From: an uncultured Bacilli bacterium
Lineage (GTDB): Bacteria; Bacillota_I; Bacilli_A; RF39; UBA660
NCBI GenBank assembly: GCA_947629405.1
Contig: CANRDL010000002.1
Span: 23,417-87,416 of the forward strand
DNA: 64,000 nt
Direction of reading: 5' to 3'
Below the pieces are notes generated by a model. That model was not told where the DNA came from, ran no database searches, and saw nothing but the letters and a program-made list of their open reading frames with translations. Shown here piece after piece: positions 54,472-54,962 of the stretch (positions within the stretch are counted from its first letter, which is position 1; the number at the start of each line of letters is the position of its first letter). The translations under genes and the position numbers were made by a program.

Positions 54472-54500
54472 TTGACAAAATATAATATTTCGATTACAAT
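54472..54500 (+). promoter_or_regulatory. near-consensus sigma-A promoter
   Basis: TTGACA (54472-54477), 17 nt, TACAAT (54495-54500). Confidence 0.6.
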
Positions 54501-54530
54501 ATACTTAGGTTTATAGAAGGAGAGGTTTAT

Positions 54531-54935
54531 ATGTCAAATTTATTAATTATGGGTGCTAAAACAATGGATAAAACTGATTTTTGTACGAGTACAGCTAATA
54601 TTTGGCAATTTGTTGGATATTTCCTATTCTGGTTTAAAATTATTATTCCCCTATTAATTATTATTTTAGGAATGATAGATTTAGGTAAAGCTGTTGTTGC
54701 TCAAAAAGATGATGAAATTAAGAAAGCTACTAGTAGCATAATTAAAAGAGTTGTTATTGGTATAGTTATATTCTTTATTCCAACAATAGTTTATTTATTC
54801 TTTGGCCTAGTAGGATTAAGATCTGGTGATGATAAAAATGATAAATCGGGTATTCAAATGTGTTATAAATGTTTACTAAAACCATTTAAGACAAAGTGTG
54901 AAGGCACAAATGTAACTGATCCAAATGAGGCTTAA
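54531..54935 (+). CDS. stand-alone VirB2/TrbC-like two-helix membrane protein
   Basis: KIIIPLLIIILGMIDLGKAVVAQKDDEIKKATSSIIKRVVIGIVIFFIPTIV is collinear with the C-terminus of ORF 9282-10145. Cys-rich tail (MCYKCLLKPFKTKCEG). Confidence 0.55.
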   Translation: MSNLLIMGAKTMDKTDFCTSTANIWQFVGYFLFWFKIIIPLLIIILGMIDLGKAVVAQKDDEIKKATSSIIKRVVIGIVIFFIPTIVYLFFGLVGLRSGDDKNDKSGIQMCYKCLLKPFKTKCEGTNVTDPNEA

Positions 54936-54962
54936 AGTTAATCGAAAGATTAACTTTTTCTT
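54935..54962 (+). terminator. rho-independent terminator
   Basis: aagttaatc-gaaa-gattaactt stem with a GAAA loop, followed by a T-run. Confidence 0.7.

What the first reader, a model, noticed from the sequence alone, without database searches (positions are those of the whole stretch)
54472..54962. Stand-alone VirB2-like gene at the end of the Tad locus is a paralogue of the C-terminus of the first T4SS gene
Seen:
- ORF 54531-54935 has its own near-consensus promoter (TTGACA-17-TACAAT) and a clean terminator.
- Its core KIIIPLLIIILGMIDLGKAVVAQKDDEIKKATSSIIKRVVIGIVIFFIPTIV aligns without gaps to KIVAPLLVLGLTIFEFAKAIISQDQDALKKAGNLFVKRLIIMIVLFFLPTII at the C-terminus of ORF 9282-10145.
- Both are two hydrophobic helices around a short charged loop and both carry Cys near the end.
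- A short segment of ORF 9282 (ISVYYSIEDYSDKLDTY) also resembles family A1 (NVTYEEFSDKLDSY). This match is weak.

Established: a two-helix hairpin of this kind is the VirB2/TrbC pilin fold, and similar modules occur in Firmicute and Mollicute conjugative loci (from memory).

Inference: the paralogy links the T4SS locus (9-18 kb) and the A/B-Tad supercluster (35-56 kb). They may cooperate or share components.
Basis: partly seen in the sequence, partly recalled or inferred. Interest (0 to 1): 0.6.

Follow-up and report, generated by a model that had tools for sequence, protein, structure and literature searches.

The report
Orphaned pilin-like gene of split secretion cluster
The small gene behind the Tad pilus genes is a real relative of the first gene of the distant type IV secretion (T4SS) locus: both are VirB2-like two-helix "pilin" proteins from one array that, in most related gut bacteria, joins the two machines into a single gene cluster, which matters because Gram-positive systems of this type are generally said to lack such pilins.

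Summary
ORF 54531-54935 (134 aa) has its own promoter and terminator. Its two-helix core matches the C-terminus of ORF 9282-10145 far beyond what membrane-segment composition would give (BLASTP E 2e-15; z 20.8 against shuffles).

Both belong to a very large family (9,381 clusters at 50% identity). The only recurrent Pfam match is PF18895 (T4SS_pilin), the profile used to find VirB2-like pilin arrays in Patescibacteria.

In 55 of 100 related small-genome gut Bacilli that carry both machines, the Tad genes run straight into the T4SS genes. One to three of these hairpin genes sit at the junction, in the order TadZ, stand-alone pilin, ORF 54999 homologue, N-extended pilin(s), VirB6, VirB3, VirB4. 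This genome has broken that cluster after ORF 54999.

The two window copies represent two ancient classes: array-first stand-alone, and VirB6-proximal with an N-terminal outer domain. Thirteen genomes without Tad keep both T4SS and hairpins, so the module goes with the T4SS.

In 89 of 90 copies, cysteines flank the hairpin on both outer sides, which suggests a disulfide clamp.

Polymerisation into a pilus is inferred, not shown. The weak "SDKLD" match to family A is chance.

The parts
54472..54500 (+). Own sigma-70-type promoter of the stand-alone gene (TTGACA-17-TACAAT). It starts immediately after the TadZ-like stop codon.
   Evidence: 11 of 12 matches. It is conserved in G085.
54516..54525 (+). 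Ribosome-binding site GAAGGAGAGG, 5 nt before the ATG.
   Evidence: read directly from the sequence.
54531..54935 (+). Stand-alone hairpin protein (134 aa), array-first class. Layout: short N-tail with invariant Cys18; helix 1 (about 27-55); charged loop KDDEIKKA; helix 2 (about 74-96, with IFFIPT); C-tail with CxxC...P...C.
   Evidence: invariant columns. (AF2 helices 14-57, 60-96, 105-116; pLDDT 73.7)..
54934..54966 (+). Intrinsic terminator: 10-bp stem, GAAA loop, U-run.
   Evidence: dG -9.4, z -3.7. The stem is conserved in G085 with a changed loop.
54999..56177 (+). 392-aa membrane-anchored, Cys-containing protein. In relatives with an intact cluster it is the conserved neighbour that sits between the stand-alone pilin gene and the rest of the hairpin array. 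The cluster break in this genome lies after this gene.
   Evidence: 37-39% identical homologues in that position in L062, L065, L089, L108 and L077.. The fold is unknown (AF2 pLDDT 43).
53488..54471 (+). TadZ/CpaE-like last gene of the Tad-like locus. A hairpin gene starts 32-234 bp after its orthologue in 22 of 23 surveyed genomes that have it.
9282..10145 (+). First gene of the T4SS locus (287 aa), VirB6-proximal class. It has a Sec signal peptide (aa 1-29), a variable Cys-rich outer domain and a C-terminal hairpin module.
   Evidence: (member of a 22-member clade, support 0.925, of which 20 are array-last genes)..
9903..10127 (+). The hairpin module inside ORF 9282 (aa 208-282). It is flanked by Cys199 before and Cys284 after.
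   Evidence: HMM positions 18-92. (C199 nearly invariant, C284 invariant)..
10177..12279 (+). VirB6/TrbL-like polytopic protein, always directly downstream of the last hairpin gene. Its own N-terminal hairpin (aa about 49-110) weakly resembles the module.
   Evidence: NF045848, NF045889, pLS20_p028. (weak TrbL)..
12298..14939 (+). VirB3-like (109 aa), VirB4 N-domain (187 aa) and VirB4 ATPase (594 aa) as three overlapping ORFs. The same three-way split is conserved in relatives, so this is not a pseudogene.
14958..16868 (+). SpoIID-domain cell-wall hydrolase of the T4SS locus (VirB1-like role). Relatives carry a peptidase M23 enzyme in this position.
26006..28294 (+). VirD4/TraG-type coupling protein. 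It lies 7.4 kb beyond the T4SS locus here but adjoins it in G083 and G132.
   Evidence: PF02534, E 6.9e-51..

Best explanation
ORF 54531-54935 is the array-first, stand-alone subunit of a VirB2-like (Pfam PF18895-type) hairpin family. The family belongs to the chromosomal Gram-positive-type T4SS (VirB6, VirB3, split VirB4, wall hydrolase, VirD4) of this lineage of small-genome uncultured gut Bacilli.

It sits at the end of the Tad locus because the usual, probably ancestral, layout is one co-directional supercluster. Its order is Tad genes, TadZ, stand-alone pilin, ORF 54999-like gene, N-extended pilin(s), VirB6, VirB3, VirB4, hydrolase, coupling protein. In this genome a rearrangement cut that cluster after ORF 54999. 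The first pilin, with its own promoter and terminator, stayed attached to Tad. The last pilin (ORF 9282) stayed attached to VirB6, 45 kb upstream.

Proposed mechanism (inferred):
- The protein inserts in the membrane with both ends outside and the conserved charged loop inside.
- A disulfide between the N-flank and C-flank cysteines clamps the hairpin. This would do by other means what head-to-tail cyclisation does for some VirB2/TrbC pilins.
- The VirB6/VirB3/VirB4 platform assembles many copies into a pilus-like fibre or wall-spanning conduit.
- The stand-alone form is the bulk subunit.
- ORF 9282 and the other fused paralogues are minor subunits that carry variable outer domains on the same hairpin.

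Shown here: the paralogy, the family assignment, the synteny, the two classes, the cysteine pattern, and a topology consistent with the signal peptide and the fusions. Inferred: the disulfide, the polymerisation and the division of labour.
For: Paralogy.

Family:
- 775 close relatives are found, many with PF18895 precomputed.
- 41 of 47 stand-alone-class and 12 of 21 VirB6-proximal-class members hit PF18895. No other family recurs beyond 9 of 47.
- Weak hits to the Mycoplasma ICE 'pilin-like' NF045849 and to the neighbouring VirB6-like models appear in the same gene order.

Synteny:
- In 14 of 28 contiguous genomes the order is TadZ, then 1-3 hairpin genes, then VirB4, within 3.4-6.7 kb.
- In 55 of 100 genomes TadB to VirB4 spans 5.8-12.5 kb on one strand.
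- G132, from another family of the class, has the same complete cluster.
- Among 53 informative species loci, 23 have TadZ upstream and T4SS downstream, 10 have TadZ only and 8 have T4SS only.
- Gene-by-gene order is seen in L062, L065, L089 and L108.

Co-occurrence:
- The module is present in 112 of 113 genomes with VirB4 and 4 of 8 without (Fisher p 4e-5).
- All 13 genomes that lack TadB but have VirB4 keep the module.

Two classes:
- A clade of 22 (support 0.925) holds 20 array-last genes including ORF 9282. Of these 22, 17 have N-terminal extensions. None of the 31 array-first genes is inside.

Cysteines:
- 89 of 90 copies have at least one Cys within 24 aa before helix 1 and within 40 aa after helix 2. 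The background expectations are 27% and 41%.
- Nearly all genes of the last class have exactly one Cys on each side.
- A thioredoxin/TraF-like gene follows the pilin in L006 and L007.

Conservation: the helices and loop are 70-80% conserved and the tails 21-31%.

Topology: the Sec signal of ORF 9282 and the C-terminal Big_2 fusion of the C1 paralogue both place the hairpin ends outside.
Against:
- The window protein alone is below Pfam's gathering score for PF18895.
- No family member hits TrbC/VirB2 PF04956.
- No solved structure matches by sequence or by fold.
- Gram-positive T4SSs studied so far make no conjugative pilus (PMC12857230).
- The closest studied two-helix protein of a Firmicute T4SS, TraB of pIP501, is described as a membrane component, not a pilin (PMC9083827).
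- About 50% identity across genera is high for an exposed fibre subunit.
- Three genomes have the module and Tad but no detected VirB4 (G085, G025, G104). All three are fragmented assemblies. In G085 the contig ends 754 bp past the gene that flanks the T4SS here.
Confidence: 0.6

Rival explanations
1. The hairpin is a membrane-embedded T4SS channel or assembly factor that never leaves the membrane. It would work like TraB of plasmid pIP501. TraB is a processed two-helix protein with both ends outside, whose best-conserved part is the cytoplasmic loop. It is essential for transfer, oligomerises, and binds the VirB8-like proteins and the hydrolase. On this view the fused paralogues would simply use the hairpin as an anchor that docks their outer domains to the machine.
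For: - The topology and conservation pattern are the same as reported for TraB (PMC9083827).
- One family member weakly hits T4SS_CagC, the label carried by some TraB relatives.
- Core conservation is high.
- The N-terminal hairpin of VirB6 weakly resembles the module, which hints at an intramembrane partnership.
- Reviews state that Gram-positive T4SSs lack pili.
Against: - The recurrent Pfam match is to the pilin family PF18895, not to CagC.
- Arrays of 2-16 divergent copies per genome, with variable outer domains on either end, resemble the pilin arrays of Patescibacteria, Bartonella Trw and Anaplasma (PMC12102498) more than a single-copy channel part.
- A separate strong promoter and terminator for the bare subunit suits a bulk structural protein.
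Confidence: 0.27
2. The stand-alone protein is a working part of the Tad-like pilus machine, for example a membrane platform, an anchor or a fibre subunit. Its resemblance to the T4SS gene would then reflect a component shared between the two machines.
For: - It follows the TadZ-like gene by 32-234 bp in 22 of 23 surveyed genomes.
- In at least seven lineages where the cluster is split, the stand-alone gene stayed with Tad.
- Three genomes with Tad and the module have no detected VirB4.
Against: - All 13 genomes that lack TadB keep VirB4 and the hairpin arrays. Several of them are assembled in 9-10 contigs.
- In G028 and in Ca. Ventrenecus the stand-alone gene heads the T4SS locus away from TadZ.
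- In a wider sample the split goes either way at similar rates, 10 TadZ-only against 8 T4SS-only.
- The three VirB4-less cases are fragmented assemblies.
- The Tad locus has its own Flp-like pilins and pseudopilins.
- The gene has its own promoter and terminator, so it is not part of the Tad operon.
Confidence: 0.1
3. The similarity is a by-product of two hydrophobic helices with a charged loop, and the ORF is an unrelated small membrane protein.
For: Low-level hits of the family to rhodopsin, Frizzled and transporter models show that membrane-segment composition does create noise.
Against: - z 20.8 against shuffles, and other hydrophobic windows score at most 43 against 138.
- Composition-adjusted E 2e-15.
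- Profile-profile E 2.4e-21.
- Fifteen invariant columns including Cys, Pro and Gly.
- Conserved synteny.
Confidence: 0.01

Closest known systems
VirB2-like pilin arrays (Pfam PF18895 T4SS_pilin) of the relaxase-less chromosomal T4SS of Patescibacteria (Quinonero-Coronel et al. 2025, PMC12102498; reviewed in PMC12857230)
   Same: - The Pfam family is the same, and it is the only recurrent hit.
- The host is monoderm with a small genome.
- The T4SS is a chromosomal MPF-FATA-type system with VirB3, VirB4, VirB6, a hydrolase and VirD4.
- Arrays of several sequence-divergent hairpin genes lie next to the T4SS genes.
- A type IV-filament machine is present in the same organism.
   Different: - The host is a Bacilli lineage, whereas the reviews call Patescibacteria the only Gram-positive exception.
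- The array lies exactly at the junction of a fused Tad-T4SS supercluster.
- Many copies carry large outer domains at the N- or C-terminus.
- Cysteines flank the hairpin in 89 of 90 copies.
- The stand-alone class has no recognisable signal peptide.
TraB of the Enterococcus/Streptococcus plasmid pIP501, with 'CagC family' relatives in Firmicutes (PMC9083827)
   Same: - It is a small two-helix T4SS protein of a Firmicute system.
- Both ends are outside.
- The cytoplasmic loop is the best-conserved part.
- It is encoded at the head of the transfer operon.
- It is essential and oligomeric.
   Different: - TraB is single-copy, plasmid-borne and made with a cleaved signal peptide.
- It has no ectodomain fusions and no Cys clamp.
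- Its authors found no relation to VirB2.
- Sequence relation to the present family was not tested directly. Only 1 of 47 members hits T4SS_CagC weakly.
Mbov_0395 / MMCAP2_0565 'pilin-like conjugal transfer protein' of Mycoplasma ICEs, followed by Mbov_0396 (VirB6-like) and Mbov_0397 (VirB4) (NCBIfam NF045849, NF045889, NF045975)
   Same: - The gene order is the same: hairpin protein, VirB6-like, VirB4.
- The window's VirB4 and VirB6-like proteins hit these Mollicute models best.
- Five to seven family members hit the pilin-like and VirB6-like models weakly.
   Different: - All hairpin hits are far below the curated cut-offs.
- The Mycoplasma systems are mobile elements with a fused VirB3-VirB4, not a fixed chromosomal cluster joined to Tad.
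Canonical VirB2/TrbC/TraA conjugative pilins of Gram-negative T4SS (Pfam PF04956 and relatives)
   Same: - The topology is a two-helix hairpin with a short charged loop.
- The gene lies upstream of virB3-virB4.
- The ends are closed by cyclisation in VirB2 and TrbC, and possibly by a disulfide here.
- Paralogue arrays exist in Bartonella Trw and in Anaplasma.
   Different: - No sequence match to PF04956 appears in any of 68 members tested.
- No structural match by Foldseek.
- There is no outer membrane and no VirB5, VirB7, VirB9 or VirB10.
Archaeal Ced DNA-import system (VirB2-like CedA1, VirB6-like CedA, VirB4-like CedB) working with Ups type IV pili (PMC9905601, PMC11868833)
   Same: A monoderm cell pairs a T4SS-derived machine that has a VirB2-like pilin with a separate type IV-filament pilus, in a chromosomal, non-mobile setting.
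   Different: - The domain of life is different.
- The Ced and Ups genes are not fused into one cluster.
- Ced has no VirD4.
- No functional data exist for the present system.

Membership tests
Pfam PF18895 T4SS_pilin (VirB2-like pilins of monoderm T4SS) | A score at or above Pfam's gathering cut-off (26.6 bits) for the protein itself. | tested here: not met
   The window protein scores 18.8 bits, E 0.0017, although the match spans profile positions 4-71 of 71. ORF 9282 has no hit at E 0.01.
Pfam PF18895 T4SS_pilin (VirB2-like pilins of monoderm T4SS) | Family-level homology: close relatives match the profile, and no competing family does. | tested here: met
   - 41 of 47 stand-alone-class members match (best E 1.4e-7).
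- 12 of 21 VirB6-proximal-class members match (best E 5.3e-7).
- The next most frequent families reach only 9 of 47.
- Many relatives that are 45-55% identical to the window protein carry PF18895 as a precomputed domain.
Pfam PF18895 T4SS_pilin (VirB2-like pilins of monoderm T4SS) | The gene lies next to virB4/virB6, often as arrays of divergent copies. | tested here: met
   A module gene lies 2.6-6.2 kb upstream of VirB4 in 26 of 27 genomes. There are 1-16 copies per genome. In this window the stand-alone copy is displaced, and ORF 9282 keeps the position.
Canonical VirB2/TrbC (Pfam PF04956) | Sequence match to the TrbC/VirB2 profile. | tested here: not met
   No hit at E 0.01 in any of 47 + 21 members.
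Canonical VirB2/TrbC (Pfam PF04956) | Two hydrophobic helices around a short charged loop, with both ends outside the cytoplasm. | tested here: met
   - The AF2 model has helices 14-57 and 60-96.
- The Sec signal peptide ahead of the ORF 9282 module, and the Big_2 outer domain behind the C1 paralogue's module, fix both ends outside.
- The loop carries K/R 5 and D/E 3 (sequence).
Canonical VirB2/TrbC (Pfam PF04956) | A cleaved N-terminal signal peptide. | tested here: not met
   The stand-alone class has only 0-25 variable residues before the invariant Cys, and some members start MxFC. Only the N-extended class has a Sec signal. No dedicated predictor was run; this was judged from the sequence.
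Canonical VirB2/TrbC (Pfam PF04956) | Polymerises into an extracellular pilus assembled by VirB4/VirB6. | not testable with these tools
   This needs microscopy or biochemistry. No multimer modelling tool was available.
Canonical VirB2/TrbC (Pfam PF04956) | Fold match to solved pilin structures. | tested here: inconclusive
   The best Foldseek PDB E-value is 3.7, and no pilin appears among the hits. A bare helical hairpin is too simple for this test.
TraB(pIP501)-type small T4SS membrane proteins | Sequence relation to TraB and its CagC-family relatives. | tested here: inconclusive
   1 of 47 members hits PF16943 T4SS_CagC at E 0.0022. No TraB sequence was available for direct comparison.
Tad/Flp pilus components (Flp pilin, TadE/F pseudopilins) | A prepilin-type leader ending in Gly followed by a single hydrophobic helix, and dependence on the Tad genes. 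| tested here: not met
   - The protein has two helices, not one.
- The residue before the conserved Phe-Cys is not a conserved Gly.
- Only 1 of 47 members hits PF13400 Tad weakly.
- The module is retained in all 13 genomes that lack Tad.

The most novel reading that the evidence does not exclude
A whole lineage of uncultured, small-genome gut Bacilli builds a VirB2-type, disulfide-clamped pilus or conduit on a Gram-positive T4SS. That T4SS is genetically fused to a Tad pilus.

The bare hairpin would form the shaft. Interchangeable hairpin-ectodomain fusions, such as ORF 9282 and the Big_2 paralogue, would decorate or cap it, with the VirB6-proximal class playing a VirB5-like priming or tip role.

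The paired machines would mediate contact-dependent exchange with other cells. This would parallel the essential T4P plus T4SS pair of epibiotic Patescibacteria, or Ups plus Ced DNA import in Sulfolobales. It would also mean that the pilin was already present in Firmicute-type T4SSs rather than being a Patescibacteria novelty.
Probability: 0.22. Interest if true: 0.85.

Novelty: new variant of a known kind. Interest (0 to 1): 0.58.

Why it matters
Current reviews state that VirB2-type pilins are absent from Gram-positive T4SSs, with Patescibacteria as the single exception (PMC12857230). The Patescibacteria study left open whether their pilin was borrowed from Gram-negative systems (PMC12102498).

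This work finds a very large PF18895-type hairpin family (9,381 clusters at 50% identity) inside a vertically inherited T4SS of a Bacilli lineage. That bears on both points.

It also gives a testable handle on the biology of abundant but uncultured small-genome gut bacteria. They keep a Tad pilus and a T4SS as one cluster, with a modular set of pilin-like proteins between them.

For annotation, it explains why a 'T4SS pilin' gene can appear at the end of a Tad locus with no T4SS genes nearby. It is the orphaned head of a split cluster.

The flanking-cysteine rule and the two positional classes are concrete, checkable features for structural and genetic work.

Tried and rejected
- **PDB sequence search with the family profile.** It returned only rhodopsin-type noise at E >= 0.06.
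- **Foldseek of the AF2 model against the PDB.** Nothing scored below E 3.7. A hairpin is too simple for this test.
- **AF2 of the neighbour ORF 54999 with six homologues.** The pLDDT was 43, so no fold search was made. Pfam on its family found nothing.
- **Idea that the C-terminal domain of the 415-aa paralogue on contig C1 is the same enzyme as the T4SS hydrolase.** BLASTP found nothing and the PDB search nothing. Only Big_2 is assigned.
- **Idea that 'G-FC' is a prepilin-peptidase site.** Rejected, because the residue before Phe is not conserved and is Asp in the window protein.
It is not above shuffles.
- **Literature search for RF39 plus type IV secretion.** It found nothing relevant.
- **Whether G085 truly lacks the T4SS.** Unresolved, because its contig ends 754 bp beyond the flanking gene.
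- **NCBI taxonomy.** It gave no useful placement for the named relatives.
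Full report
**1. What is at the coordinates**

ORF 54531-54935 encodes 134 residues. It is a separate transcription unit.
- TTGACA-17-TACAAT lies at 54472-54500 and abuts the stop codon of the TadZ-like gene. 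It is one of the two best promoter-like sites on the + strand in 6 kb.
- GAAGGAGAGG lies 5 nt before the ATG.
- A 10-bp hairpin plus U-run follows the stop codon. Its dG is -9.4 kcal/mol, z is -3.7, and no shuffle of 200 folds as well.
- The consensus terminator scan missed the hairpin only because it requires three G-C pairs.
- In the same-genus genome G085 both hexamers and the terminator stem are kept while the loop differs.

**2. The paralogy is real**

- BLASTP aligns residues 36-99 with residues 219-282 of ORF 9282-10145 at 41% identity, without gaps, at E 2e-15 after composition adjustment.
- The Smith-Waterman score is 138. For 2000 shuffles it is 28 +/- 5, with a maximum of 65 (z 20.8).
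- The best of 28 other strongly hydrophobic 80-residue windows encoded in this window scores 43.
- Profiles built from the relatives of each copy match at 99.4% probability, E 2.4e-21, over 77 columns.

The second, weak resemblance (SDKLD motif, family A) is not above shuffles: z is 1.1, 3.0 and 0.04.

**3. What family it is**

- The protein has 775 relatives at E <= 1e-3 in the word-indexed search.
- An exhaustive profile search found 9,381 50%-identity clusters at E <= 1e-3, of which 4,366 are at E <= 1e-10.
- Of the best 150, 66 are bare hairpins. Another 68 carry the hairpin at the C-terminus of a longer protein, 13 carry it at the N-terminus, and 3 carry it in the middle.
- Fifteen alignment columns are invariant among 47 stand-alone members: C18, G29, K36, I39, P40, G47, G52, A54, K64, F81, P84, T85, C111, C114 and P118.
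- The helices and the loop are 70-80% conserved, and the tails 21-31%.

Pfam gives one recurrent answer, PF18895 T4SS_pilin.
- It matches 41 of 47 stand-alone members (best E 1.4e-7).
- It also matches, independently, 12 of 21 members of the ORF 9282 class (best E 5.3e-7).
- Noise families reach at most 9 of 47.
- The window protein itself scores 18.8 bits against a 26.6-bit cut-off, although it is matched end to end.

Other comparisons were negative or weak.
- No member hits TrbC/VirB2 PF04956.
- NCBIfam gives only sub-threshold hits. These are to the Mycoplasma ICE 'pilin-like' model NF045849 and to the neighbouring VirB6-like models.
- The AF2 model (pLDDT 73.7) is two long helices (14-57, 60-96) plus a short C-terminal helix.
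- Neither a sequence search nor a fold search of the PDB finds a relative. For so simple a fold this is uninformative.

PF18895 is the profile used to detect VirB2-like pilins, often in arrays of 2-11, next to virB4 in Patescibacteria (PMC12102498).

**4. The genome holds four copies**

Besides the two in the window, there are two more.
- Contig C31 carries another stand-alone copy, between leuS and rhodanese on one side and dedA and rmuC on the other.
- Contig C1 carries a 415-aa protein between priA and fmt. It has the hairpin at its N-terminus, then a Big_2 Ig-like domain and an unassigned C-terminal domain.

All have orthologues in G085.

**5. Surroundings and comparative genomics**

The T4SS locus contains:
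- ORF 9282;
- a VirB6/TrbL-like protein;
- a VirB3-like protein, a VirB4 N-domain and a VirB4 ATPase as three overlapping ORFs;
- a SpoIID-type hydrolase.

The three-way VirB4 split is conserved in relatives (102 + 189 + 594 aa), so it is not decay. ORF 26006-28294 is a VirD4/TraG coupling protein. In G083 and G132 it adjoins the T4SS genes.

I mapped the hairpin profile, VirB4 and the TadZ-like protein in 28 well-assembled genomes of the same family.
- In 14 of them the TadZ-like gene is followed on the same strand by 1-3 hairpin genes and then VirB4, all within 3.4-6.7 kb.
- In 22 of the 23 genomes that have the TadZ-like gene, a hairpin gene starts 32-234 bp after it.
- In 26 of the 27 genomes that have VirB4, a hairpin gene lies 2.6-6.2 kb upstream of it.

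Wider samples agree.
- In a sample of 121 genomes, 100 have both TadB and VirB4.
  - In 55 of these the two lie 5.8-12.5 kb apart in that order on one strand.
  - In 5, including this genome, they share a contig but are at least 30 kb apart or reordered.
  - In 40 they are on different contigs.
- G132, from a different family of the class, has the full contiguous cluster.
- Outside this family the module is rare in Bacilli, in about 2 of 220 genomes.
- Among 53 informative loci from different species, 23 have TadZ directly upstream and T4SS genes downstream. Ten have TadZ only (the arrangement in this window), 8 have T4SS only and 12 have neither.

In the closest intact clusters (L062, L065, L089, L108) the order is:
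- TadA, TadB, TadC;
- Flp-like pilins and pseudopilins;
- TadZ;
- stand-alone pilin;
- homologue of ORF 54999;
- a 380-394-aa protein ending in the hairpin (in L089, a second stand-alone hairpin instead);
- an ORF 9282-like protein;
- VirB6, VirB3, VirB4.

The window therefore holds the two halves of a cluster cut after ORF 54999. The T4SS half now lies 45 kb upstream.

The splits in other lineages have different geometries. The T4SS lies 31-47 kb away in either direction, or on other contigs. In L006 about 5 kb of housekeeping genes, including tyrS and ftsW, are inserted inside the array. These geometries point to independent rearrangements of a contiguous ancestor. This polarity is inferred by parsimony. 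No species tree was available.

**6. Two ancient classes**

A tree of the hairpin core of 90 copies shows a clade of 22 with support 0.925.
- It contains ORF 9282 and 20 genes that are last in their array, directly before VirB6.
- Seventeen of the 22 have an N-terminal extension.
- None of the 31 array-first genes is in it.

The window's stand-alone gene groups with array-first genes of other genera (support 0.92). The paralogy therefore predates the radiation of the family. Each copy is the orthologue of a fixed array position.

**7. Which machine does it serve?**

- The module is present in 112 of 113 genomes with VirB4 and in 4 of 8 without (Fisher p 4e-5).
- All 13 genomes that lack TadB but have VirB4 keep hairpin arrays at the head of the T4SS. 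Several of these are assembled in 9-10 contigs. Their best Tad-ATPase hits are only 28% identical paralogues.
- Four genomes lack all three.
- Three genomes have Tad and the module but no detected VirB4. All three are fragmented. In G085 the contig ends 754 bp beyond the gene that flanks the T4SS locus here.

The module is thus independent of Tad and travels with the T4SS. Its position after TadZ is best read as inherited gene order.

**8. A cysteine rule**

- In 89 of 90 copies there is at least one Cys in the 24 residues before helix 1 and at least one in the 40 residues after helix 2. The background expectations are 27% and 41%.
- Nearly all genes of the VirB6-proximal class have exactly one on each side. 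In ORF 9282 these are C199 and C284.
- The stand-alone class has one before and about three after.
- Both flanks are extracytoplasmic. This follows from the Sec signal peptide of ORF 9282 and from the outer domains fused at either end in paralogues.
- In L006 and L007 the pilin gene is followed by a thioredoxin-fold gene that also passes the F-plasmid TraF model.

I infer a disulfide that ties the two outer ends of the hairpin together. This has not been shown.

**9. Mechanism and rivals**

*Best reading (0.6).* This is a PF18895-type VirB2-like subunit family of a Gram-positive chromosomal T4SS.
- The separately promoted bare hairpin would be the bulk subunit.
- The N- or C-extended paralogues would be minor subunits that display variable domains.
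- Assembly would occur on VirB6/VirB3/VirB4.

*Main rival (0.27).* This is a TraB(pIP501)-like intramembrane assembly factor. TraB has the same topology and the same conserved cytoplasmic loop, and it is essential for transfer, yet its authors do not regard it as a pilin (PMC9083827).

*Second rival (0.1).* A Tad component is disfavoured by section 7.

*Third rival (0.01).* Chance similarity is excluded by section 2.

**10. Comparison with what is known**

Reviews state that VirB2 and VirB5 are not found in Gram-positive T4SSs except in Patescibacteria. They also say those organisms are unique among monoderms in their potential to make conjugative pili (PMC12857230). No paper in the held library links RF39-type bacteria with T4SS.

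The present family is therefore a second monoderm case, in Firmicutes, with four new features:
- its position at a Tad-T4SS junction;
- two positional classes;
- ectodomain fusions;
- the flanking-cysteine rule.

Other agents of this scan reached similar conclusions on other genomes. Those notes were leads, and every point used here was re-derived from this genome and its relatives.

**11. Limits**

- There was no multimer modelling and no access to model coordinates to measure Cys distances.
- There was no direct comparison with Patescibacteria, TraB or CedA1 sequences.
- The tree rests on 75 columns.

Noticed in passing
window 12298-14939: VirB4 is encoded as three overlapping ORFs: VirB3-like (109 aa), N-domain (187 aa) and ATPase (594 aa). 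They match positions 2-96, 101-281 and 295-891 of the single Mycoplasma VirB4 model. The same split (102 + 189 + 594 aa) is conserved in distant relatives, so it is a stable architecture and not a frameshifted pseudogene.
   Followed up: partly
window 26006-28294: A VirD4/TraG-type coupling protein (PF02534, E 6.9e-51) lies 7.4 kb beyond the T4SS locus, separated from it by tyrS, ftsW and a SpaA-fold surface protein gene. In G083 and G132 its orthologue directly adjoins the T4SS genes. So the 'relaxase-less' system does have a coupling protein.
   Followed up: partly
window 54999-56177: A 392-aa membrane-anchored protein has many invariant Cys, Trp and Tyr residues. It is conserved at 37-41% identity as the gene between the stand-alone pilin and the rest of the array in intact clusters. 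It has no Pfam family, and its AF2 model is unusable (pLDDT 43).
   Followed up: partly
window 8828-9154 (minus strand); L007 11603-12091: A truncated DUF1016_N (YhcG-type nuclease N-domain) fragment sits exactly at the upstream edge of the displaced T4SS half. Another DUF1016_N gene lies about 1.2 kb past the orphaned pilin in an independently split relative. PDDEXK_2 and Rpn-type genes lie about 8 kb upstream of the T4SS head in Ca. Ventrenecus. These may mark the rearrangement breakpoints.
   Followed up: no
window 10177-10510 (VirB6-like, aa about 49-110): The first two helices and loop of the VirB6-like protein (ARIIQQDDIENFMKRLMVVVG...) weakly resemble the pilin module. The score is E 1.3e-4 in a 28-sequence search, and similar hits occur in about 12 of 28 orthologues. 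The NCBIfam model MMCAP2_0566 matches the ORF 9282 module with its positions 50-128 and VirB6 with positions 183-315. VirB6 may therefore begin with a degenerate copy of the hairpin.
   Followed up: partly
own genome, contig C1 37576-38823 and contig C31 4252-4731 (outside the window): There are two further copies of the module among housekeeping genes. One is a 415-aa protein with the hairpin at the N-terminus, a Big_2 Ig-like domain and an unassigned C-terminal domain. The other is a second stand-alone copy. Both are conserved in the same-genus genome G085.
   Followed up: partly
L006 10425-10853 and L007 10425-10853: A thioredoxin-fold gene that also passes the F-plasmid TraF model (25.6 bits against a cut-off of 23) directly follows the Tad-end pilin gene in a relative. 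This fits an extracytoplasmic disulfide step for this Cys-flanked family.
   Followed up: no
genomes G017 and G109 (same genus, g17): The module has expanded to 10-16 copies per 1.2-1.5 Mb genome. Most copies are fused to 300-550-aa proteins and several lie in tandem runs. This looks like a lineage-specific burst of hairpin-ectodomain genes.
   Followed up: no
genome G057: TadZ, the hairpin genes and the T4SS are contiguous on contig C1, but the TadB orthologue lies on another contig. The supercluster can therefore also break inside the Tad part, leaving TadZ with the T4SS.
   Followed up: no
window 14958-16868 compared with L020 3977-5314 and L019 15067-17628: The wall hydrolase slot after VirB4 is filled by a SpoIID-domain protein here but by peptidase M23 proteins in G083 and G132. 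This is non-orthologous replacement of the VirB1-like function.
   Followed up: no
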